Positions 6,255 to 41,376 are shown, counted from the first letter of the stretch. The stretch: DNA of 64,000 nt from Arenicellales bacterium (GCA_965216735.1 OZ244198.1:4725628-4789627), one strand, 5' to 3'. Made by a program: numbers and translations. Notes: generated by a model from the letters alone, not told the origin.

Positions 6255-6270
6255 TGTGAGTTAGTTCACA
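6255..6270. promoter_or_regulatory. CRP/FNR-family-type palindrome TGTGA-GTTAGT-TCACA
   Basis: Both half-sites are perfect. TACGAT at 6292-6297 sits at the spacing expected for the -10 of a class II (-41.5) promoter reading rightward. Confidence 0.55.
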
Positions 6271-6323
6271 GTAATTGAAGTCACTTGTCTGTACGATGAA
6301 GTTTCGAATAAGGAGTACGGGCA

Positions 6324-6521
6324 ATGCAACAACGACACAATATTCAGGAATCCAGGCGTCACTGCGAAGACCCGTACTTTGTATATGGTCTGAATCATCC
6401 CTGTAACGGCATGTACCGGGATGATGTCAGTGTTAGTGAGGATTCATATTTAGATGAAAAACCCACAAACTTGAATGTGTATGATATGAATCGACAAACC
6501 CAATCAACCAAAGGAATCTGA
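6324..6521 (+). CDS. small hypothetical protein (65 aa)
   Basis: AAGGAG at 6310-6315, 8 nt before the ATG. It lies directly downstream of the CRP-like site. No homology recognised. Confidence 0.35.
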   Translation: MQQRHNIQESRRHCEDPYFVYGLNHPCNGMYRDDVSVSEDSYLDEKPTNLNVYDMNRQTQSTKGI

Positions 6522-6876: not shown

Positions 6877-9249
6877 TCACCGCGCACAGCGAAAACCCAC
6901 CATGGATAACGCGAAGTGGGGTGGGTTTGCGTGGCGCAATGTAGTGCGTAATCCCCAGGGGTTGTTACCCCAACCGCCACCACGAATCACTTTTTCTTCA
7001 GCCATTTCACGATTTACCGGATCTTGTTTTGGTGAGCGCGAATAGAATGTTGGGTCAAAACTGTCTTCGACCCATTCCCACACATTTCCGGTCATATCCT
7101 CGGCGTCAAACGCTGACGACCCTGAAGGAAAACTGCCGACAGGTGCTGTGTAAAGATAGCCATCATGGTCATCCGCAGCGCAACAAGCATCACTGCCGTA
7201 GGAAGCACGGAATGTGTTGTCATGGTTGGGAGATTGATTTCCCCAAGCGTATTCACGATCACCAATACCACGGGCTGCACGCTCCCATTCGGCCTCGGTT
7301 GGCAAGTGTTTACCACGCCACTCGCAATATGCATTGGCGTCATGCCAACTCACTTGTACTACGGGGTGATTTTCCAGTCCCTGAATAGAAGAGTCAGGGC
7401 CACGTGGATGTCTCCAAGTCGCTTGTTCGACTTGGTGCCACTTGTTTTCCCAATGCCATGCCTTGCCTGACTTCTCCGCGTCGGTAGTATGGCCGGTAAC
7501 GGCAGCGAAATAGGCAAACTCTTTGTTGGAGACTTCGTGGCGGTCGATGGAAAATTCGGAAACCGTGATCTTGTGCACCGGTTGCTCAGCATCTTCTCCG
7601 TCTTCCGAACCCATCATGAGTTCACCTGTGGTTATTCGAATCATTTCATCACTATGTTTTTGCCACCAAGCCTCCCACGCATCGAAGTCATAGCCAAAGC
7701 GGTTGCCAGTGAGATCAGACAGTGCACCCACAATATCGCCCTTCAACCAGAGCGGATCGTCGTCATTTGTCAATCGTCTAATCAACGCTTGAATCGTTGC
7801 ATCGTCCGATTGTGCAATGTCGCCAACGGTCACAATGGCACCGAGCAAGGGTTCAAAATATTTTTCGGCGTGATTGGATGGTCGTGTCCAATCACCGTTT
7901 AACAAATCAATCGGTACATCCCCATAGCCGTTCAAACTCATAGCCCACAGCAAATACCAACGGTTAATGGCTGGAACGTCGACTTTATGAGCGAATGTTT
8001 CCAATGTCGACGAGGGGGAATCCACTAACAACAATTTTGATAACGCGTTGCCGGCGTCTGCCCTTCGACTCAAAGCCAATGGTTGAAGGAATTTATCCAG
8101 GCTGTTGCGATGCTCTCTAAAGTTTGCAAATGAAGTTTGTAATGCGGTTGCCAATTCCGTGGTTAGAATCGCAATGTCGTTAACCGCTTGTTTTTGCGTC
8201 GTTAGGGACGGTGTTGTGGTGATGTTTTTACTATCGGTTAAGGATGCTTGTCCCCAAAGAGCGCCGCGATCATTGGGTCCCAGGGTGCCGACATAAACAC
8301 GATCATCAAAAACGACTAGATCCACCGGTTGTGTATTGTCAAATACCTGTTCGACAGTCCAGTGTTTGCCGTCAACACTGCGTAGTAGCTTGCCGCCGTT
8401 GTTGGCAGCACTGACAGCCCACATTTCACTTTTGCCCGTAGCAAACGCACGTATATTTTTATCGTCGAGTTCATCGACCCGTTGTACTTTGGCGCCATTG
8501 GTTCGCCACACTGACCGCTCGCCGTTTCGTGAGTTAACGGCATACAACCAACTGTTGAATTCAGTAAGTGCTGTGGTTGCTGTCCCTTCAGGCCATCCGC
8601 TGACTACTTGCATGGAGTTATTGACCCAACGCAACAACTTTGGTCCGGATTGACTGCGACTGGTAAGACCGGCGTAAAGGTTACTATTGAGTATTGTCAA
8701 ACTAGTGATGCGAGACACTTTTCCTTCGGGTGTCTCGTGATCATAAATCACCTCCCAAGCAAGTCCACCGTCAACGGAGCGTTGTAAACCGGCCCGCCAG
8801 GCCGACGTTGCCACATACAATTCATTGTTTGATTGAGCCATCGCGTGTGTATGGAAAACTTGTGCGGGAGCGAGTGTATTTTTAACCCATTCACGACCGT
8901 TGGTGACCGAGTATTCGCCACCACCGGTCGAAAACCGCGAATCTTCGTATGGCCAGTACAAAAGATCGTTGTGTACCACCGGTTCGCCGACATCCTGACT
9001 GAAGAGATGTTTTTCGTAACGTGTTGCGCCGGTTCGAGGGTTATAGCTGTAGAGATCGGCGGAATTGTGGTTTGTGAACTTGACACTATTGACGAACCAA
9101 ACACGATTGTCGTAGGCAACCAAATGGGAAATTGCGGGCCAAGGCCCGGGTTGTGACAAGATGACCAATGGTTCGGCGGTAAACGCATGCCCATTTAACA
9201 GAAACAGAATAGCAAACGGGGTAAACCGCCATGCAGTAAACTTGTGCAT
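6877..9249 (-). CDS. secreted protein with an N-terminal beta-propeller-like region and a C-terminal formylglycine-generating-enzyme (SUMF1/FGE) domain
   Basis: C-terminus reads HKITVSEFSIDRHEVSNKEFAYF ... RGGGWGNNP ... GFRCAR, typical of FGE-sulfatase domains. I chose the start at M24 (ATG 9249) because MHKFTAWRFTPFAILFLLNGHAFTAEP reads as a signal peptide and this start avoids overlap with the LysR gene. Confidence 0.8.
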   Translation of the reverse strand: MHKFTAWRFTPFAILFLLNGHAFTAEPLVILSQPGPWPAISHLVAYDNRVWFVNSVKFTNHNSADLYSYNPRTGATRYEKHLFSQDVGEPVVHNDLLYWPYEDSRFSTGGGEYSVTNGREWVKNTLAPAQVFHTHAMAQSNNELYVATSAWRAGLQRSVDGGLAWEVIYDHETPEGKVSRITSLTILNSNLYAGLTSRSQSGPKLLRWVNNSMQVVSGWPEGTATTALTEFNSWLYAVNSRNGERSVWRTNGAKVQRVDELDDKNIRAFATGKSEMWAVSAANNGGKLLRSVDGKHWTVEQVFDNTQPVDLVVFDDRVYVGTLGPNDRGALWGQASLTDSKNITTTPSLTTQKQAVNDIAILTTELATALQTSFANFREHRNSLDKFLQPLALSRRADAGNALSKLLLVDSPSSTLETFAHKVDVPAINRWYLLWAMSLNGYGDVPIDLLNGDWTRPSNHAEKYFEPLLGAIVTVGDIAQSDDATIQALIRRLTNDDDPLWLKGDIVGALSDLTGNRFGYDFDAWEAWWQKHSDEMIRITTGELMMGSEDGEDAEQPVHKITVSEFSIDRHEVSNKEFAYFAAVTGHTTDAEKSGKAWHWENKWHQVEQATWRHPRGPDSSIQGLENHPVVQVSWHDANAYCEWRGKHLPTEAEWERAARGIGDREYAWGNQSPNHDNTFRASYGSDACCAADDHDGYLYTAPVGSFPSGSSAFDAEDMTGNVWEWVEDSFDPTFYSRSPKQDPVNREMAEEKVIRGGGWGNNPWGLRTTLRHANPPHFALSMVGFRCAR

Positions 9250-14704: not shown

Positions 14705-14743
14705 TGTGAAGTAGATCACAGTTTGTGTGTGAACTAGTTCACA
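14705..14743. promoter_or_regulatory. tandem pair of perfect CRP-like palindromes (TGTGA-AGTAGA-TCACA and TGTGA-ACTAGT-TCACA), 23 bp centre to centre
   Basis: Read directly at 14705-14720 and 14728-14743. TAGACT at 14765-14770 sits at class II spacing from the second site. The pair lies in a ~700-bp gap with no convincing gene. Confidence 0.55.
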
Positions 14744-14946
14744 TATTTAATAATTTCGAACGAGTAGACTGCAAACCTCTCTGGGGTATGTTAGGGGGGG
14801 ATGCGGCTGAGTTCCCAAATACACCCGGCTCGGCGCGCATCTTTTCTAGCACGTCGGTGCCGCGAATTTAGTTCCGACGCCTTATCTTCCCGTCATTTCT
14901 GTTCGCCTTGAAAAACACATTGTTTAAGGCGTGAGACGTGAATTTA

Positions 14947-15285
14947 CTAAAACAACGTCCACTCTGAAGTTGGGGTTTGTTTAGTAAAAAAGAATGTACG
15001 TTTTCGATCACGGTCAATAACGATGCAACTAAGCCGTAGCGGATAGGTAACATTGTTTCTTTGCGAGAATTCAATTTCGTCGCTCGTGAACTCAAGCGAT
15101 TTATCTTCGCCCGCTCCCAGTCCTGGAAGTAACCCGTCTTCTTTTGATTCCATACATTTGTGTAACATGCTTAACAATTCCTTGCCGTAAGGACTTTTCT
15201 CAAATTTTGTTTCCATTATCGAACAGCCGGTTATACTAAACACGAAAGTGACTAGTATAAGATTGAAATTTGATAGCTGTTTCAC
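14947..15285 (-). CDS. hypothetical lipoprotein
   Basis: MKQLSNFNLILVTFVFSITGC contains a lipobox (ITGC). Confidence 0.5.
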   Translation of the reverse strand: MKQLSNFNLILVTFVFSITGCSIMETKFEKSPYGKELLSMLHKCMESKEDGLLPGLGAGEDKSLEFTSDEIEFSQRNNVTYPLRLSCIVIDRDRKRTFFFTKQTPTSEWTLF

Positions 15286-20422: not shown

Positions 20423-20438
20423 TGTGTGCCAGTTCACA
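20423..20438. promoter_or_regulatory. near-perfect CRP-like site TGTGT-GCCAGT-TCACA
   Basis: One mismatch. It shares the extended right half AGTTCACA with the sites at 6255, 14728 and 31674. Confidence 0.4.
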
Positions 20439-20552
20439 CGAACTGAGTGATAAAATTTACAGTTGGGTGATTGCCATAGGACGCAACCATACGCTCACTC
20501 TCGGGCCGATATGATCAGAAGAAAAAAAGCGAGAGGCAAATTCATAGGACAA

Positions 20553-20635: not shown

Positions 20636-20911
20636 CTAGTTAATAACGCCTCCGGTAGTTGTTGGCGCGGGTGTTGTTGCAGGTGCAGCGGTCGTGGTGG
20701 GTGCGGTCGTAGTTGCTGGGGCCGAGGTGGTCGTTACAACTGTAGTTGTTTGCGCATGCGCTGGAAGAACAACACTATCCACAATAGGTCTTGTCCACTC
20801 GCGGGGTAACGCCTTAGTAACAACAGCGGTTGCCCCGCCGGTCAGTAAAATGGTCTTTAACGTTTTTCGTCGCTGGCTGGATTTATTTGAGTAGTTCTTT
20901 TCTTGTGTCAC
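20636..20911 (-). CDS. P1: minimal member of the Tat-like-leader family (leader plus a 35-aa Thr/Pro/Ala-rich tail)
   Basis: SQRRKTLKTILLTGGATAVVTKALPREWTRPIVDSVVLPAHAQTT matches the leader of P2-P6. The remainder is TVVTTTSAPATTTAPTTTAAPATTPAPTTTGGVIN. Confidence 0.65.
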   Translation of the reverse strand: MTQEKNYSNKSSQRRKTLKTILLTGGATAVVTKALPREWTRPIVDSVVLPAHAQTTTVVTTTSAPATTTAPTTTAAPATTPAPTTTGGVIN

Positions 20912-31193: not shown

Positions 31194-31650
31194 CGCGAGT
31201 AACTTTACACGGAATACTTGCCAGCTAATTACTGTGTAGGGGAACTGTTCCAAAGGACTGGATCGCAAACGGGTGGGAATCGGGCAGTGGATGCCCGGTT
31301 CCCACTTTTTTTGCAACCAGGGTCCTAAGATAAGACAGGGGAGCATGTATCCAAGGGATCCAAATAATCGGTGTTGAAAATGACGTTTTGGTCTACGACG
31401 CACCAAGTTGAAGGTGGCGATGACAACTTACAAGGATTATTTGAGTCAAATTTTTCAATGATAAGACAGCATTTTCATACTTGCTCCTGCCACCAACCAA
31501 GAAAATGCGAAGCGACTCAAAGCGTTCGGTAATGAGACAATGCAACGCACAAATCGCCAAAACCACTAAGTACGAAGCTTGTATAACAGATCTGCCACCG
31601 TGTTTTAACGTGCGGTTCATTTCCCTAAATTCACCCATGGTGACGTGTCT

Positions 31651-31689
31651 TGTGAACTATCACACAATGATTGTGTGATGCAGTTCACA
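31651..31689. promoter_or_regulatory. tandem CRP-like sites (TGTGA-ACTATC-ACACA and perfect TGTGA-TGCAGT-TCACA), 23 bp centre to centre
   Basis: Read directly. The architecture and flanks match the pair at 14705-14743. TAAATT at 31711-31716 sits at class II spacing. Confidence 0.55.
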
Positions 31690-31722
31690 GTTTCCCCCTT
31701 TGTATCTTGTTAAATTGAAACA

Positions 31723-31851
31723 ATGTTTTGGCAAGAGCAACGATAGGGGCGTTGTTAAGGAAACAGAGTTTAGGACTATGGGGAGTTTCTAAACTCGAGT
31801 TTTTACAAGGAGATATTGAAAACCCCCATCTAGGGACAGGTGGGGGTTTTT
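31723..31851 (+). ncRNA. candidate small RNA (about 130 nt), from the predicted CRP-dependent start to an intrinsic terminator
   Basis: No ORF longer than 8 codons with an RBS. It is bounded by a promoter-like element and the hairpin plus T-run at 31819-31851. The 5' end is predicted only from spacing. Confidence 0.35.
31819..31851 (+). terminator. rho-independent terminator (A-tract / stem / T-tract, potentially bidirectional)
   Basis: aaaACCCCCAtctagggacaggTGGGGGTtttt: a 7-bp GC-rich stem flanked by a 3-nt A-run and a 4-nt T-run. Confidence 0.75.
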
Positions 31852-32230
31852 ATCTATCTCGAGGTTACTGAACCTCGGACATGCTTTCAGAAGCATGCCA
31901 TGATCAAAAACACGTTGTCACGCGATGGCCGCGGTCGATGAGGCCATTGATGTAAAAATACGGCTCGTCAATTTCCGTACGAGTGTTCAAGAACAGACGG
32001 TGGTGGTGAACAACCTTTACGCTGTTGTTGGAATGGCGGAGCGATTTACTCACCGGCAACACACATAAACGCAAGCCTTGGATGTCCACGTTACACTGCT
32101 TGGACTATGTTCATCGTCCAAGCCCGATTGTGTGAATTCGTGATTGCCATCAAGCACCAGTGGATGGCACACTGTACGGTGACGTCGTTGCGTTGATCTT
32201 TTTATTATCAACTTAAGGGAGACACAAAGG

Positions 32231-32779
32231 GTGAGAAAACAAAAAAAATCGAGTAATGCACGTAGAAAATTACTTAAACTAGCTTCGTACGGTACATTGG
32301 GTGCCACTACAGTCCCGGCAACATGGGTAAAGCCGATCATTGACGTGGTGGTTCTACCGGCGCACGCACAAACCACGGGACCCGTTGATCCAACTAACCC
32401 GACTAATCCAACTAATCCGACTAATCCAACGACCCCACCACCGACGACACCGGCACCGAATCAGTGCACTGTCTCGACCATACCGGCCGCATCAATTGGT
32501 GCATGCCCGACGTCGCCCAACATTCAGGCAGCGTGTACAGTCGATTTAAATATTTCCGGTTGCGAGCCATTTGCATCGGTCGACGGACAATGGATTTGCA
32601 ATGGATCCAACGTAGGTGCCTATGGAAGTTTCACGCTCGATGCGAATGGTGGGTTATCGGTGACACGGCCGTATCCGGGTGTGCATGGTGGACGCTGTTG
32701 CGAACTGGTGATTGATATCAATGGTCAGGTTTTTCGCGACCTGTTTTTTGTGGCAGACGGGGGTAGTTGCCAAATATAG
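32231..32779 (+). CDS. P2: Tat-like-leader family protein with (PTN)n linker and a 9-Cys C-terminal domain
   Basis: GTG start preceded by taAGGGAGac. NARRKLLKLASYGTLGATTVPATWVKPIIDVVVLPAHAQTT leader, then PTNPTNPTNPTNPTTPPPTTPAP, then a Cys-rich domain. Confidence 0.7.
   Translation: MRKQKKSSNARRKLLKLASYGTLGATTVPATWVKPIIDVVVLPAHAQTTGPVDPTNPTNPTNPTNPTTPPPTTPAPNQCTVSTIPAASIGACPTSPNIQAACTVDLNISGCEPFASVDGQWICNGSNVGAYGSFTLDANGGLSVTRPYPGVHGGRCCELVIDINGQVFRDLFFVADGGSCQI
32390..32434 (+). repeat. in-frame 9-bp tandem repeat (ccRacWaaY, about 4.5 copies) encoding (PTN)n in P2
   Basis: ccaactaac ccgactaat ccaactaat ccgactaat ccaacgacc, read directly. Confidence 0.9.
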
Positions 32780-37990: not shown

Positions 37991-38614
37991 TTAAAGGGAG
38001 CAAAATGGCTCACTTGGGCACCCGCTCCCTACCGATAGTGTTCCAGAACTAGCGTAAGTCCCGGACAACGTGAAATCCGCGCCACTCGCTGAAACGCTAT
38101 TAACGGCGATGGATTCCATGCCAAGAATGCAGTTATTGACGTCGACCATGTCCACGGCGCCACCACCCACCACGCCACTTGCGGTGAGGAACGAACCATT
38201 GCCCAGCACTGCCAACGTTGCCGTGAAGTTCGTGCCGTTTACCTCAATACACATGTCAGCAGAATCCTGCGGCAATCCACCGGCATACGCATTTGGAATG
38301 ACTGTATCCAGGATGGTGGCGTATAAACCTTCTTGCGGTTGATCGATACTATTAATAGGAGTTATGGTGACGGAGAACTGACCTCTGAAATTGATGATTG
38401 GCAATGTCGTAGTTGGCGCGGGTGTGGTAGGCACCACGGTGGTTTGCGCATGAGCAGGCAGTATCACACTGTCCACCACCGGTTTGGTCCATTTGGTCGG
38501 TAGTGTTTGGCTGGCCGCAACAGCGGCACCGCTACCGACTAAGAGTCTCTTTAACGCTTTGCGTCGTGCTGTCGGTTGCTCCGGTGGTTGTGATGAATCA
38601 AACGCTTGTTTCAT
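37991..38614 (-). CDS. P3: Tat-like-leader family secreted protein, 4-Cys beta-rich domain
   Basis: I chose the start at MKQAFDSS (ATG 38614) because AAGGAGAA lies upstream and it aligns with P4. Leader TARRKALKRLLVGSGAAVAASQTLPTKWTKPVVDSVILPAHAQTTVVPTTPAPTTT. Confidence 0.75.
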   Translation of the reverse strand: MKQAFDSSQPPEQPTARRKALKRLLVGSGAAVAASQTLPTKWTKPVVDSVILPAHAQTTVVPTTPAPTTTLPIINFRGQFSVTITPINSIDQPQEGLYATILDTVIPNAYAGGLPQDSADMCIEVNGTNFTATLAVLGNGSFLTASGVVGGGAVDMVDVNNCILGMESIAVNSVSASGADFTLSGTYASSGTLSVGSGCPSEPFCSL

Positions 38615-38822
38615 AAGATTTCTCCTTTTCTTCAGTGCGGTTTTAATCAAACCTCGGTGATATCGTAGCTTCATTCATTGCTAAATTTACCGATTTAGGG
38701 TGCCGATGATTCCGATTCTCCGTCTGTCTATCCAATCGCCAACGTTAGCGATAGTGAGCAAAATGTAGAGCATGAACCATGGCTAAAATTGTTGTTTCGT
38801 GTCATAAGGTCAATACTCGTTC

Positions 38823-39452
38823 TTAAGTAAAGATTGGGATACAGTTTCCCGGATCACTGGGGCAACCGTTACCGGTTGGCAGCATTCCGCTAGCGGTAAA
38901 GAAACCGGACATCGTGAAATCCGCTCCACCGGGTGACACGCTATTCACCGAAAGAAATGTGTCGGATACTTCACAAGCGTTCGGGTTGTCCATAATCACT
39001 GGACCTCCACCTACAGTGCCACTGGCGGTCAAGAAAATGGGATCAGTAGCAGTAGGACGAGTAAAGTCAAATCTCACAGCCGCGGTGAAACTGGTACCGT
39101 CCACTGCAATACACATGTCACCGGATTGTGTCGAAGTACCAGCGTGTGCTTTTGGAACGATTGAATCCAGTATGGCAAACAGGCTTTCTGGCTCGTTATT
39201 AATTGTTACTATAGCGTTTGCTGAAACAGGACCCCTGAAATTGATTACTGGTGCCGCCGTCGTAGTGGGCACCACGGTGGTTTGCGCATGCGCCGGTAGT
39301 ATCACACTGTCCACCACTGGTTTGGTCCACTTGGTCGGTAGTGTTTGGCTGGCCGCGACAGCAGCACCGCTACCGACTAAGAGTTTCTTTAACGCTTTTC
39401 GCCGCGCCGTCGGTTGCTCCGGCGGTTGTGATAAATCAAACGTTTGTTTCAT
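38823..39452 (-). CDS. P4: Tat-like-leader family secreted protein
   Basis: The leader differs from P3 at 3 residues out of about 62. The mature part is diverged but keeps 4 Cys (DMCIAV, NACEVS, GNGCPSDPGNC). Confidence 0.75.
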   Translation of the reverse strand: MKQTFDLSQPPEQPTARRKALKKLLVGSGAAVAASQTLPTKWTKPVVDSVILPAHAQTTVVPTTTAAPVINFRGPVSANAIVTINNEPESLFAILDSIVPKAHAGTSTQSGDMCIAVDGTSFTAAVRFDFTRPTATDPIFLTASGTVGGGPVIMDNPNACEVSDTFLSVNSVSPGGADFTMSGFFTASGMLPTGNGCPSDPGNCIPIFT

Positions 39453-39625
39453 AAGGTTTCCCCTTCTCGTCGATAATATTCTTAATCAAAACTTGGTTAC
39501 GTCATGATTTTATGGACTACGCTTTAGTGATTCCCGAAAAATATATGATAGCTTTGTTTGTTCCATACCGCTCAAGTCCTCAGATAGGTAGGGGTATTTG
39601 TAGGAACTAGGTGCTAAGCTGATGT

Positions 39626-40240
39626 TTATTCGCAACCAACGAAAGGATCAGTGGGACAACCGCTACCGACCGGTAATACACCACTCGCGTTGAAGAGACC
39701 CGATAGCGTGTAGTCGGCACCAGCGGTTGATGCACTATTGACCGACAGATCTGTTGGGGTAGAGCGACACCCATCGACATCGGTCATGGTGACTGAACCA
39801 CCCCCTACTATGCCACTCGCTGTAAAAATATCAGTATCAACTACTAGTGTTGCGGTGAAGCTGGTGCCATTGACTTCAATGCACATGTCTGCGGGTCTCT
39901 GAGTGAATCCACCGGCGTGCGCATTGGGAATGACCGTATCCAGGATGGTGGCGTACAAACCTTCTTGCGGTTGGTCGATACTATTAATAATAGGATTGTT
40001 TTGTTGGCCAGCAGTAAATTGACCTCTGAAATTTTGCATAAACACCGTTGTGGTAGGCACCACGGTGGTTTGTGCATGAGCCGGTAATATCACACTGTCC
40101 ACTACCGGTTTGGTCCATTTTGTGGGTAAGGCGTGACTGGCGGCTACTGCGGCGCCGCCACCGACTAACAACTTTTTTAAAGCCTTTCGCCGAGTAGGTG
40201 TGTGGTCTTTGGATACGACTTGGTTTTCTGATGAACTCAT
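39626..40240 (-). CDS. P5: Tat-like-leader family secreted protein
   Basis: I chose the start at MSSSENQ (GGGAGG upstream). Leader TRRKALKKLLVGGGAAVAASHALPTKWTKPVVDSVILPAHAQTT. The mature domain is close to P6. Confidence 0.75.
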   Translation of the reverse strand: MSSSENQVVSKDHTPTRRKALKKLLVGGGAAVAASHALPTKWTKPVVDSVILPAHAQTTVVPTTTVFMQNFRGQFTAGQQNNPIINSIDQPQEGLYATILDTVIPNAHAGGFTQRPADMCIEVNGTSFTATLVVDTDIFTASGIVGGGSVTMTDVDGCRSTPTDLSVNSASTAGADYTLSGLFNASGVLPVGSGCPTDPFVGCE

Positions 40241-40508
40241 CAACGGCCTCCCATTCATGAAATTTTGATGTTTCTACTCAACCACTTATGAGATATGTAT
40301 CATAAATATTATCAAATAGCCACAAAACAACATTGTTCGTACTAAGGTTTATTAATATTAGATATTATTAATAAAACACAAATCTATATACCGGCCGATA
40401 CCGTTAGATGACATGAATGACTGTTACAGGAAACTTTTTTTGGTGGACGTCATAGTACGCTGACAAATGTCAGAGGCGGAAACCGAATTCCCAAATCGAG
40501 CCCCACTG

Positions 40509-40586
40509 CGTTTGGGACATGATCCAGAAAAAGCGATGGTGACTGAATTCGGCAAGGTGTTCGGCGTCGGTAACCTTTTTATTTCT
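40509..40586 (+). pseudogene. remnant of the 3' end of a second GMC oxidoreductase gene
   Basis: It translates to RLGHDPEKAMVTEFGKVFGVGNLFIS, versus CRMGSDPEKAVTDELGKVFGVGNLYIT at the C-terminus of 36316..37956. There is no upstream ORF. The position relative to P6 mirrors that of the intact GMC gene relative to P3. Confidence 0.65.
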
Positions 40587-40621
40587 CAATTTAGGTATGG
40601 GTGACGGGGCTAAGCTATTGT

Positions 40622-41197
40622 TTAATCACAACCAACAATAGGATCAGTCGGACAACCGCTACCTGCCGGCAACATACCACTCGTGCTGTAAAAACCCGAT
40701 AACGTGTAGTCGGCACCAGCGGATGATGCACTATTGACAGTCAACTCTGTTGGCACAGAAGTACACCCATCGACATCGGTCAAGGTAACCGGACCTCCGC
40801 CGACCGTACCACTCGCCGTGAATAAAATATCATTGTTTACTAACAGTGTTGCGGTGAAACTGGTGCCATTGACTTCAATACACATGTCGGCCGGTGACAT
40901 ACGAAATCCGGCATGCGCTTTTGGAATTACCGTATCCAGGATGGTGGCGTATAAACCTTCTTGCGGTTGGTCGATGCTACCAAAGTTTATGTCAACGGAG
41001 AACTGGCCCCTGAAATTTTGCATAAACACCGTTGTGGTAGGCACCACGGTGGTTTGTGCATGAGCCGGCAGTAGGACACTGTCCACCACCGGTTTGGTCC
41101 ATGTGGCCGGTAGCTGGGTTGCACCGACCACACCCCCCGCCAAGCCCAACAACGCCCTACGACGTGCCGTCGGAATACGCTGTTTATCTTCTTGCAT
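40622..41197 (-). CDS. P6: Tat-like-leader family secreted protein
   Basis: I chose the start at MQEDKQRIP (GGAGACGGAGAG upstream). Leader TARRRALLGLAGGVVGATQLPATWTKPVVDSVLLPAHAQTT. The ORF extends to 41260. Confidence 0.75.
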   Translation of the reverse strand: MQEDKQRIPTARRRALLGLAGGVVGATQLPATWTKPVVDSVLLPAHAQTTVVPTTTVFMQNFRGQFSVDINFGSIDQPQEGLYATILDTVIPKAHAGFRMSPADMCIEVNGTSFTATLLVNNDILFTASGTVGGGPVTLTDVDGCTSVPTELTVNSASSAGADYTLSGFYSTSGMLPAGSGCPTDPIVGCD

Positions 41198-41376
41198 CTC
41201 TCCGTCTCCCCATAAAGTGTCGAATTTTCTAAAACCCGGCTTTACAACGACAGGTTTCATTTAAAACGGGCACAACGAAGGAGCCCGCTCTCTGCTTGGT
41301 GTCCAATGAATTATCAGACATTCCTTCGTGATAGTTGCTACTGGAAAGCAGTTAAACCAATGACAGCGACGAGCGC

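What the first reader, a model, noticed from the sequence alone, without database searches (positions are those of the whole stretch)
31651..31897. Second 23-bp-spaced CRP-site tandem, an sRNA-like unit and three consecutive hairpins in the 1-kb gap upstream of P2
Seen:
- The sites are TGTGA-ACTATC-ACACA (31651-31666) and the perfect TGTGA-TGCAGT-TCACA (31674-31689).
- Their flanks align with the 14.7-kb pair: cTTGTGA...CACA...TGTGA...AGTTCACA.
- TAAATT at 31711-31716 sits at class II spacing.
- No credible ORF follows. An intrinsic terminator (31819-31851) does, bounding a unit of about 130 nt.
- Two 7-bp tetraloop hairpins come immediately after: CGAGGTT-ACTG-AACCTCG at 31860-31877 and CATGCTT-TCAG-AAGCATG at 31880-31897.
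- The surrounding non-coding stretch (31194-32230) is unusually long for this dense genome. It separates the vWA gene from P2.

Inference: a CRP-controlled small RNA or leader that may regulate the P/vWA cluster.
Basis: partly seen in the sequence, partly recalled or inferred. Interest (0 to 1): 0.6.

Follow-up and report, generated by a model that had tools for sequence, protein, structure and literature searches.

The report
Candidate CRP-driven orphan small RNA
In the longest gene-free gap of this marine gammaproteobacterial (Arenicellales-like) sequence, two touching binding sites for a CRP-type regulator sit in front of a promoter that most likely makes a short, tightly folded, non-coding RNA of about 130 bases; this is a new but unvalidated example of a familiar kind of regulator, with no sign yet of what it controls.

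Summary
The proximal, perfect CRP-type site is followed after exactly 21 nt by a -10-like TAAATT. The same site-21 nt-TAnnnT geometry occurs at four of the five CRP-site loci in the window. It is conserved in two related genomes and peaks at the same offset in unrelated metagenome tandems. So a plus-strand class II promoter with a start near 31723 is well supported in silico.

What follows is non-coding: no gap ORF shows codon-like divergence. It is strongly structured (z -5.7) and ends at a strong intrinsic terminator, giving a unit of about 130 nt. The unit differs from a 90%-identical relative at 3.1% of positions, against 10.2% for the other non-coding stretches of the gap from 31641 onward (p 0.012). 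It matches no Rfam family.

My best reading is an independently terminated, CRP-family-activated small RNA (confidence 0.55). The main rival is a terminator-containing leader of P2 (0.2). Nothing supports regulation of the P/vWA cluster.

The two trailing hairpins diverge at the local neutral rate and look accessory. The 23-bp tandem is a recurring promoter design that also drives a peptidase gene.

Verdict: new member of a known kind, moderate interest.

The parts
31651..31666 (.). Distal CRP-type site TGTGAACTATCACACA (one mismatch); centre at about -64.5
   Evidence: In L001 it reads TGTGAACTATCGCACA, so the only change falls at the position that already departs from consensus.
31674..31689 (.). 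Proximal, perfect CRP-type site TGTGATGCAGTTCACA; centre at about -41.5
   Evidence: Identical in L001.
31711..31716 (+). -10-like hexamer TAAATT, exactly 21 nt after the proximal site
   Evidence: The hexamer and the 21-nt spacer length are conserved in L001 although the spacer carries 5 substitutions. The same geometry occurs at 6255(+), 14728(+) and 20423(-), against a background TAnnnT frequency of 0.0114 per position.
31723..31851 (+). Predicted non-coding RNA unit of about 130 nt: SL1 31728-31758, SL2 31759-31804, single-stranded ACAAGGAGAUAUUG linker, terminator
   Evidence: MFE -47.1 kcal/mol, z -5.67 on the plus strand, against -33.2 on the minus strand. It has 4 differences in 129 nt from L001 against 47 in 461 for the other non-coding stretches of the gap from 31641 onward, p 0.012. 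ORFs are not conserved. No Rfam match. Single copy. The start and end points are inferred, not mapped.
31819..31850 (+). Intrinsic terminator: 13-15 bp stem with five G-C pairs, loop AGGGAC, then UUUUUAUCU
   Evidence: -22.7 kcal/mol. Identical in L001. The T.G pair favours the plus strand.
31860..31877 (+). 7-bp tetraloop hairpin or 18-bp palindrome, beyond the terminator U-tract
   Evidence: -10.2 kcal/mol. In L001 T31866C opens the top pair (-9.2 kcal/mol).
31880..31897 (+). Second 7-bp tetraloop hairpin or palindrome; its core resembles the first (GSTTWCWGAASC)
   Evidence: -7.4 kcal/mol; -6.5 in L001 after a deletion and a substitution. The motif is not enriched elsewhere.
31333..31640 (.). 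Conserved, unstructured non-coding block upstream of the sites; function unknown
   Evidence: 4.2% diverged against 10.2% for the other non-coding stretches (p 0.002). Fold z is +1.0 and +0.6 on the two strands. No coding signal.
31258..31320 (+). Terminator of the upstream vWA gene, which isolates the gap from vWA transcription
14705..14743 (.). Sister tandem: two perfect sites 23 bp apart
14765..14852 (+). -10-like TAGACT at 14765-14770 (21 nt after the site), then a unit of about 75 nt with a GC-rich hairpin (about 14800-14846) followed by UUUUCU; no downstream co-oriented gene
   Evidence: fold z only -1.7. It lies in the second-longest gap. No ortholog was available for comparison.
20423..20461 (-). 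Third tandem: proximal TGTGAACTGGCACACA and degenerate distal TGTAAATTTTATCACT (read on the minus strand), 23 bp apart, driving the M48 peptidase gene
   Evidence: The tandem and the -10 (TAGAAT or TAGCAT) at +21 are conserved in L001 and in the more distant L243 (sites at 8882 and 8905).

Best explanation
A CRP/Vfr-family regulator binds two abutting 16-bp sites, the perfect one centred near -41.5 and the weaker one near -64.5. It activates a class II-type sigma-70 promoter (-10 TAAATT, start near A31723). Transcription stops at the strong intrinsic terminator (31819-31850 plus U-tract), releasing a free-standing, three-hairpin, non-coding RNA of about 130 nt. The RNA most likely acts in trans, either by base pairing or by binding a protein. 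Its single-stranded ACAAGGAGAU linker and G-rich tracts are the obvious candidate contact surfaces.

Shown here: the sites, the geometry, the absence of coding signal, the structure, the terminator and the conservation.

Inferred: regulator binding and activation, the transcription start, termination efficiency and any downstream function.

The distal site probably tunes the response to regulator level, by cooperative occupancy or by displacing the polymerase alpha C-terminal domain. It is unlikely to act as a classical class I activator site.
For: Sites:
- 5 perfect CRP-type palindromes against 0.08 expected.
- Three tandems at exactly 23 bp in 64 kb.

Promoter orientation and position:
- TAnnnT lies exactly 21 nt after the site at 6255(+), 14728(+), 20423(-) and 31674(+), against a background of 0.0114 per position.
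- The spacing and hexamer are conserved in L001 despite 5 substitutions in the spacer.
- The same geometry is conserved at orthologous promoters in the distant relative L243.
- Among 199 metagenome tandem instances, TAnnnT peaks at offset 21 (18 against about 3 at other offsets).

Product:
- No gap ORF behaves like a gene, whereas P2 and the peroxiredoxin gene show clear third-position bias. No gap ORF hits Pfam.
- Fold z is -5.67, and the plus strand is 14 kcal/mol more stable than the minus strand.
- The terminator hairpin is -22.7 kcal/mol.
- The unit is 3.1% diverged against 10.2% for the other non-coding stretches of the gap from 31641 onward (p 0.012) and 8-16% at third codon positions.

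Independence from P2:
- From the sequences, I estimate that the other CRP promoters here have leaders of about 20-160 nt, against 508 nt to P2.
- The sister tandem at 14.7 kb faces a convergent gene, so it can only yield a short or antisense RNA.
Against: - There are no expression data; the start site, the 3' end and CRP dependence are all predictions.
- Only one comparative genome carries the locus, at about 97% identity over the unit. There is therefore no covariation, only one-sided compatible changes.
- No convincing independent promoter for P2 was found. The one sigma-70-like match (32179-32208) is degraded in L001, so read-through into P2 cannot be excluded.
- No target was identified.
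- A CRP gene was not seen among the window proteins scanned against Pfam. The regulator's identity rests on the motif alone.
- A site at -64.5 is a poor class I position in E. coli (cooperativity factor 5.8 against 763 at -61.5; PMC6301791).
Confidence: 0.55

Rival explanations
1. The same CRP-dependent promoter is the promoter of P2. The 130-nt unit is then the 5' part of a 508-nt leader, and its terminator is a conditional attenuator (protein-, ligand- or RNA-controlled read-through). The short RNA would be a by-product or a dual-use product.
For: - P2 is the next co-oriented gene, and no conserved sigma-70 promoter was found close to it.
- Upstream G-tracts could compete for the terminator's C-tract. 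AUGGGGAGUUUC (31779-31790) matches the 5' arm in 10 of 12 positions, with a duplex energy of -13.1 kcal/mol. The nascent-RNA fold pairs UAGGGGCG with the C-tract.
- The two hairpins after the terminator would be transcribed only in read-through RNA, and both persist in L001.
Against: - The terminator is much more stable than any alternative pairing (-22.7 against -13.1 kcal/mol).
- There is no conserved leader peptide. The AUG at 31723 is AUA in L001, and the other ORFs are broken there.
- No Rfam riboswitch or leader match was found.
- 31900-32230 evolves at the neutral rate (9.4%) and is unstructured (z -0.8).
- The sister tandem at 14.7 kb has no gene to lead.
Confidence: 0.2
2. The promoter is real but the product has no function. 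On this view the unit is a relic: a left-over terminator and flanks of a gene arrangement lost in this lineage-specific island, or pervasive transcription. The low divergence would reflect local history rather than selection.
For: - The whole 20.5-32.9 kb segment is absent from the syntenic relative L243, and the locus is known from only two genomes.
- P2 next door is also only 3.8% diverged.
- No target was found and the unit belongs to no known family.
Against: - Within the same gap the unit (3.1%) and the sites and -10 hexamer (1 change in 38 positions) are conserved, while the spacers and the 31900-32230 region diverge at 9-15%.
- The very strong plus-strand-specific structure is hard to get from a relic.
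- The site-to-hexamer spacing is kept exactly despite 5 substitutions in the spacer.
Confidence: 0.12
3. The unit is a protein-titrating RNA of the CsrB/RsmZ type that sequesters CsrA/RsmA through GGA motifs. This is a sub-case of the small-RNA reading.
For: - There are five GGA motifs in 129 nt, 2.8 times the window density.
- UACAAGGA lies in the single-stranded linker and AGGGAC in the terminator loop.
- The linker matches the core of the CsrA SELEX consensus RUACARGGAUGU (my own knowledge).
- All five motifs are kept in L001.
Against: - The GGA count is not above dinucleotide-preserving shuffles (p 0.61), and A(N)GGA is only marginal (p 0.09).
- Two or three of the motifs are buried in stems.
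- The upstream boxes are CRP-type, not the GacA/UvrY box TGTAAG-N6-CTTACA.
- No Rfam Csr/Rsm model matches, even at E up to 10.
Confidence: 0.08
4. The hairpins and palindromes are DNA-level operators or repeat (REP-like) elements, and the CRP sites regulate a neighbouring protein gene from a distance. No small RNA would be involved.
For: - The two 18-bp palindromes share a core (GSTTWCWGAASC) and sit 20 bp apart.
- A relative of the vWA gene lies near Y1 transposase (REP-associated-type) genes in L002.
Against: - Neither the gap sequence nor the palindrome motif recurs in the window.
- In L001 a 1-nt deletion changes the half-site spacing of one palindrome, yet an RNA hairpin still forms.
- The minus strand has no -10 at class II distance.
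- The vWA gene is upstream and has its own terminator.
Confidence: 0.05

Closest known systems
CyaR and other CRP-activated Hfq-dependent small RNAs of Enterobacterales and Vibrionaceae (my own knowledge: De Lay & Gottesman 2009; Papenfort 2008). Crp as a master regulator of small RNAs in Yersinia: PMC4376681, listed.
   Same: Intergenic location, own CRP-dependent promoter, length of about 90-130 nt, several stem-loops and an intrinsic terminator with a U-tail. Expression would be tied to the cAMP/carbon state.
   Different: There is no sequence or covariance-model similarity. The promoter has two abutting sites rather than one. The RNA is G-rich, whereas typical anti-Shine-Dalgarno seeds are C/U-rich. 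No targets were found, and Hfq dependence is unknown.
Mycobacterium tuberculosis whiB1 promoter, with tandem, immediately adjacent CRP sites at -58.5 and -37.5 (PMC2844151)
   Same: Two CRP-family dimers on adjacent sites, too close to leave room for the alpha C-terminal domain between them. Occupancy of one site aids the other, so the output depends on regulator level.
   Different: The spacing is 21 bp there and 23 bp here. There the distal site is strong and activating, and the proximal one is weak and repressing. Here the proximal site is the perfect one and sits at the canonical activating position (-41.5). The product there is a protein gene.
Class III CRP-dependent promoters of E. coli (tandem class I plus class II sites; my own knowledge, summarised in PMC2844151)
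   Same: One dimer at -41.5 plus a second dimer upstream.
   Different: The classical upstream positions are -61.5 or about -71.5, -82.5 and -92.5, in helical phase. Here the second site is at -64.5, a position giving only about 6-fold cooperativity in E. coli (PMC6301791).
FnrS, an FNR-activated small RNA with a class II site at -41.5 (my own knowledge)
   Same: A CRP/FNR-family class II promoter driving an orphan small RNA that ends at an intrinsic terminator.
   Different: The recognition motif differs (TTGAT-N4-ATCAA), there is a single site, and there is no homology.

Membership tests
CRP/Vfr-type class II promoter | TGTGA-N6-TCACA palindrome | tested here: met
   The proximal site is a perfect match and the distal site has one mismatch. 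There are 5 perfect sites against 0.08 expected.
CRP/Vfr-type class II promoter | Site overlaps the -35 region, with its centre near -41.5 and a -10 hexamer about 21-22 nt after the site | tested here: met
   TAAATT lies 21 nt after the site. The same offset occurs at 3 other loci in the window and in L001, L243 and metagenome tandems. The start site itself is inferred.
CRP/Vfr-type class II promoter | Transcription depends on the regulator and cAMP; the organism encodes the regulator | not testable with these tools
   No cNMP-binding regulator was seen among the window proteins scanned.
Class III (tandem) CRP promoter | Second site at a class I position in helical phase (-61.5, -71.5, -82.5 or -92.5) | tested here: not met
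   The distal centre is at -64.5, abutting the proximal site. That position is weak in E. coli.
Intrinsic (Rho-independent) terminator | G+C-rich stem-loop immediately followed by a U-tract | tested here: met
   The stem has 13-15 bp including five G-C pairs, an energy of -22.7 kcal/mol, and is followed by UUUUUAUCU. It is identical in L001.
Trans-acting base-pairing small RNA | Intergenic and non-coding, with its own promoter and terminator | tested here: met
Trans-acting base-pairing small RNA | Conserved accessible seed complementary to target mRNAs | tested here: inconclusive
   Duplex and cofold screens against 50 start regions gave only loop-rich artefacts. The P genes, vWA and PqqD were not enriched.
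Trans-acting base-pairing small RNA | A detectable stable transcript; chaperone (Hfq or ProQ) binding | not testable with these tools
   No expression data are available.
Any described RNA family (Rfam 15) | Covariance-model score at or above the gathering threshold | tested here: not met
   No match at gathering threshold in the window. The best permissive hits are generic terminator-like leaders with E of 2.5-9.
Csr/Rsm protein-sponge RNA | Many A(N)GGA motifs, mostly in loops or single strands, above background | tested here: inconclusive
   There are 5 GGA motifs, 2-3 of them exposed. The count is not above shuffles (p 0.61), and A(N)GGA gives p 0.09.
Csr/Rsm protein-sponge RNA | GacA/UvrY-type upstream box (TGTAAG-N6-CTTACA) | tested here: not met
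   The upstream boxes are TGTGA-N6-TCACA.
Transcription attenuator or leader | Terminator between a promoter and a co-oriented gene | tested here: met
   P2 starts 380 nt after the terminator.
Transcription attenuator or leader | Mutually exclusive antiterminator of comparable stability, or a conserved leader peptide or ligand-binding fold | tested here: inconclusive
   The alternative pairing is weaker (-13.1 against -22.7 kcal/mol). There is no conserved leader ORF and no riboswitch match.
REP/BIME-type repeated palindromes | Many copies in intergenic regions | tested here: not met
   The hairpins and the gap sequence are unique within the 64 kb. The whole genome was not searchable.

The most novel reading that the evidence does not exclude
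Abutting CRP-family dimers centred at about -41.5 and -64.5 (23 bp apart) may be a distinct, evolutionarily maintained promoter class, separate from classes I to III. It would set a non-linear (ultrasensitive or band-pass) response to cAMP. In this lineage it controls two unrelated orphan small RNAs and a conserved M48 peptidase gene, and it recurs across very diverse bacteria.
Probability: 0.3. Interest if true: 0.65.

Novelty: new member of a known kind. Interest (0 to 1): 0.42.

Why it matters
If confirmed, this would be the first regulatory RNA described for Arenicellales-type marine gammaproteobacteria. It would also be a clean example of a global carbon or second-messenger regulator reaching targets through an RNA encoded in a lineage-specific island of secreted proteins.

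The more general point concerns the promoter design: a perfect site at -41.5 with a second dimer touching it at -64.5. This design is conserved at an orthologous peptidase promoter in three genomes. It also appears, with the same -10 offset, in many unrelated metagenome contigs. That makes a specific and cheap question testable: what does the second, out-of-phase dimer do?

The practical value is otherwise modest. The RNA is known from two genomes only and has no predicted target.

Tried and rejected
- **Hidden small protein gene.** Rejected. No gap ORF shows third-position bias against L001, most are interrupted there, and none hits Pfam. The AUG at the predicted start is AUA in L001, and the AAGGAG-UUG mini-ORF has only a 3-nt spacer.
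- **Minus-strand promoter or transcript.** Rejected. There is no -10 at class II distance on the minus strand, and the plus-strand fold is 14 kcal/mol better, with G.U pairs.
- **Known RNA family.** None found.
- **Repeat or mobile-element remnant.**
  - Nothing similar occurs elsewhere in the window or in L002.
  - Nothing similar occurs in plasmids.
  - The covariance model R1 finds no paralogue.
- **Homology between the 14.7-kb and 31.7-kb units.** None.
- **Target prediction against P1-P6, vWA and PqqD.** No enrichment, and the top hits are loop-rich artefacts. A 15-nt complementarity between 31693-31707 and the P2 start region lies upstream of the predicted start and decays to 10 of 15 in L001, so it was rejected.
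- **Csr/Rsm sponge.** Not supported statistically.
- **More comparative genomes.**
  - Exact-protein look-ups of window genes failed.
  - The genome scan gave one relative.
  - The vWA family's next member is 50% identical and sits in another context.
  - The neighbour of the 14.7-kb site is an orphan.
  - The 62%-identical relative L243 lacks the island.
  - The metagenome scan returned no relatives of the window.
- **Shared promoter motif upstream of the six P genes.** None seen by eye.
- **Literature search for a described -41.5/-64.5 tandem.** None found. The nearest case is whiB1.

Full report
**1. Observation**

- TGTGA-ACTATC-ACACA at 31651-31666.
- The perfect TGTGA-TGCAGT-TCACA at 31674-31689, with centres 23 bp apart.
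- TAAATT at 31711-31716.
- A long G+C-rich inverted repeat, AAAACCCCCATCT/AGGTGGGGGTTTT, at 31819-31850, followed by a T-run.
- Two perfect 7-bp tetraloop hairpins at 31860-31877 and 31880-31897.

These features are not chance.
- The window holds 5 perfect TGTGA-N6-TCACA palindromes against 0.08 expected. All five lie between genes.
- It holds 7 sites with up to one mismatch against 2.39 expected.
- A second pair at 14705/14728 has exactly the same 23-bp spacing.

The gap 31194-32230 (1037 bp) is the longest of 49 gaps in the window (median 101 bp). The 14.7-kb pair lies in the second longest. The vWA gene upstream has its own terminator at 31258-31320, so the gap is transcriptionally separated from it.

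**2. Source and comparative material**

- The closest public relative is an Arenicellales MAG (L001). It is collinear with window 19.6-41.5 kb at about 90% identity.
- The vWA protein family has only these two close members. The next is 50% identical and sits in another context.
- A more distant syntenic relative, L243, carries an HPr-kinase-like/glycosyltransferase 62% identical to the window's. It lacks window 13.4-19.4 kb and 20.5-32.9 kb.
- The vWA gene, the gap, P2 and both orphan tandems therefore sit in lineage-specific insertions.
- As a result the unit can be compared with one genome only.

**3. The promoter**

The strongest new evidence is geometric. In the window a TAnnnT hexamer lies exactly 21 nt beyond the CRP-type site at four of five loci. 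The background frequency of TAnnnT is 0.0114 per position, and 14 site-and-orientation combinations were examined.

| Site | Strand | Hexamer | What follows |
|---|---|---|---|
| 6255 | + | TACGAT | a Shine-Dalgarno sequence and a 65-aa ORF |
| 14728 | + | TAGACT | a unit of about 75 nt; no co-oriented gene |
| 20423 | - | TAGAAT | the M48 peptidase gene |
| 31674 | + | TAAATT | the 130-nt unit |

- In L001 the 31.7-kb spacer carries 5 substitutions, yet it keeps its length and the TAAATT hexamer, and the sites carry 1 change in 32 positions.
- In L243 the orthologous small-ORF promoter keeps the site plus TACCAT at +21.
- The M48 promoter keeps both a proximal and a distal site 23 bp apart, plus TAGCAT at +21.
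- The window's M48 promoter also has a degenerate distal site at 20446-20461, which makes a third tandem.
Among 199 non-redundant instances, TAnnnT peaks sharply at offset 21 (18 against about 3 at other offsets).
- In viral contigs the pair spacings peak at 23, 25, 32 and 40-41 bp, with almost none at 22 or 24.

Together this fixes a plus-strand class II-type promoter with a start near A31723. The proximal site is then at -41.5 and the distal site at -64.5.

The minus strand offers no -10 at the corresponding distance.

The position -64.5 is not a classical class I position. In E. coli it gives about 6-fold cooperativity, against about 760-fold at -61.5 (PMC6301791). The nearest precedent for abutting CRP dimers is M. 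tuberculosis whiB1, with sites at -58.5 and -37.5, 21 bp apart. There, occupancy of the second site changes the output with regulator level (PMC2844151).

**4. The product**

From 31723 the RNA folds into three stem-loops:
- SL1 at 31728-31758.
- SL2 at 31759-31804.
- The terminator at 31819-31850.
- An exposed ACAAGGAGAUAUUG linker lies between SL2 and the terminator.

Supporting numbers:
- The MFE is -47.1 kcal/mol with z -5.67. The reverse strand is 14 kcal/mol weaker.
- The terminator hairpin alone is -22.7 kcal/mol.
- None of 17 ORFs in the gap has a coding-type substitution pattern. The controls do: P2 gives [4,2,15] and the peroxiredoxin gene gives [7,5,26] substitutions by codon position. 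Most gap ORFs are broken in L001, and none hits Pfam.

| Region | Divergence from L001 |
|---|---|
| Unit 31723-31851 | 3.1% |
| Sites-and-spacer stretch 31641-31722 | 14.6% (almost all outside the sites and the hexamer) |
| 31852-31899 | 8.3% |
| 31900-32230 | 9.4% |
| Third codon positions | 8-16% |

The unit against the other non-coding stretches of the gap from 31641 onward (pooled 10.2%) gives p 0.012.

The few changes in the unit are structure-compatible but one-sided, so there is no true covariation. No Rfam family matches. The unit is single-copy in everything I hold.

**5. Small RNA or leader?**

Four points favour a free-standing RNA.
- The terminator is strong and canonical.
- No conserved leader peptide exists, and no antiterminator of comparable stability (best alternative -13.1 kcal/mol).
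- The 380 nt between the terminator and P2 are unstructured (z -0.8) and evolve neutrally.
- From the sequences, I estimate that the other CRP promoters in this lineage have leaders of 20-160 nt.

The 14.7-kb tandem adds a parallel case. It has the same geometry and a terminator-like hairpin followed by UUUUCU. It faces a convergent gene, so it cannot be a leader.

Against this, I could not find a conserved promoter for P2. The one sigma-70-like match is degraded in L001. I therefore keep the leader/attenuator reading at 0.2.

**6. Function**

- Screens for pairing with the start regions of 50 window genes gave nothing credible. They did not favour P1-P6, vWA or PqqD, and P2 ranks near the bottom.
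- The GGA-motif (Csr/Rsm sponge) idea is not statistically supported.
- The claim that the RNA regulates the P/vWA cluster therefore rests only on adjacency.

**7. The two trailing hairpins**

- They lie beyond the U-tract and lack U-tracts of their own.
- They diverge at the local neutral rate and are each weakened, though not lost, in L001.
- Their cores resemble each other (GSTTWCWGAASC), but the motif is not enriched elsewhere.
- I regard them as accessory or incidental, not as part of one three-hairpin device.

**8. Verdict**

- The locus is best described as a predicted CRP-family-dependent orphan small RNA gene with an unusual but recurrent two-dimer promoter. It is a new member of a known kind.
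- Everything downstream of the DNA sequence remains inferred: binding, transcription start, termination and targets.

Noticed in passing
window 20423-20461 (minus strand); L001 about 717-755; L243 8882-8920: The M48 peptidase gene has a tandem of CRP-type sites 23 bp apart, followed by TAGAAT or TAGCAT exactly 21 nt after the proximal site. The arrangement is conserved in three genomes, including one whose proteins are only about 62% identical. The tandem design is therefore not specific to small RNAs.
   Followed up: yes
Many are near-exact 23-bp direct repeats, and some contigs have three or more copies (L029, L087, L108). About 15% have a -10 hexamer at +21. Several of these (L055, L120) are followed by short terminator-ended units. 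In viral contigs the pair spacings peak at 23, 25, 32 and 40-41 bp.
   Followed up: partly
window 31333-31640: A 308-bp non-coding, unstructured block just upstream of the CRP sites is only 4.2% diverged from L001, against 10.2% for the other non-coding stretches of the gap from 31641 onward (p 0.002). No ORF, promoter or structure explains it.
   Followed up: partly
window 14705-14852: The second tandem (two perfect sites) is followed by TAGACT at +21. A unit of about 75 nt follows, with a GC-rich hairpin and UUUUCU, facing a convergent lipoprotein-like gene (14947-15285). It is probably a second orphan RNA, unrelated in sequence to the first. It lies in a 13.4-19.4 kb insertion relative to L243.
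   Followed up: partly
window 6255-6521; L243 546-833: A single perfect CRP-type site with a -10 at +21 drives a conserved 65-71 aa ORF (MQQRHNIQESRRHCEDPYFVYGLNHPCNG...) that has a good Shine-Dalgarno sequence. It sits between convergent genes.
   Followed up: partly
window 20636-20911(-), 32231-32779(+), 37991-41260(-): Six paralogous 'P' proteins share a strikingly conserved Tat-like leader (RRKxLK...WTKPVVDSV(I/V)LPAHA|QTT) followed by Thr/Pro-rich linkers. None hits Pfam. They flank genes for a sulfotransferase, a PqqD protein, an HPr-kinase-like/GT2 fusion (precomputed Pfam label PF27840 'ScmC'), a gluconate-2-dehydrogenase subunit-3-like protein and a GMC oxidoreductase. This looks like an uncharacterised secreted-protein modification cluster.
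   Followed up: partly
window about 13.4-19.4 kb and 20.5-32.9 kb, against L243: Both segments are absent from the otherwise syntenic relative L243. These island-like insertions carry two-component systems, LysR regulators, the vWA/DUF7467 protein, P1, P2 and both orphan tandem promoters.
   Followed up: partly
L002 6925-7353 and 13139-13828: The 50%-identical vWA/CLIPPER-domain homologue in another metagenome contig is flanked by two Y1 (IS200/RAYT-type) transposase genes and a DDE transposase gene.
   Followed up: no
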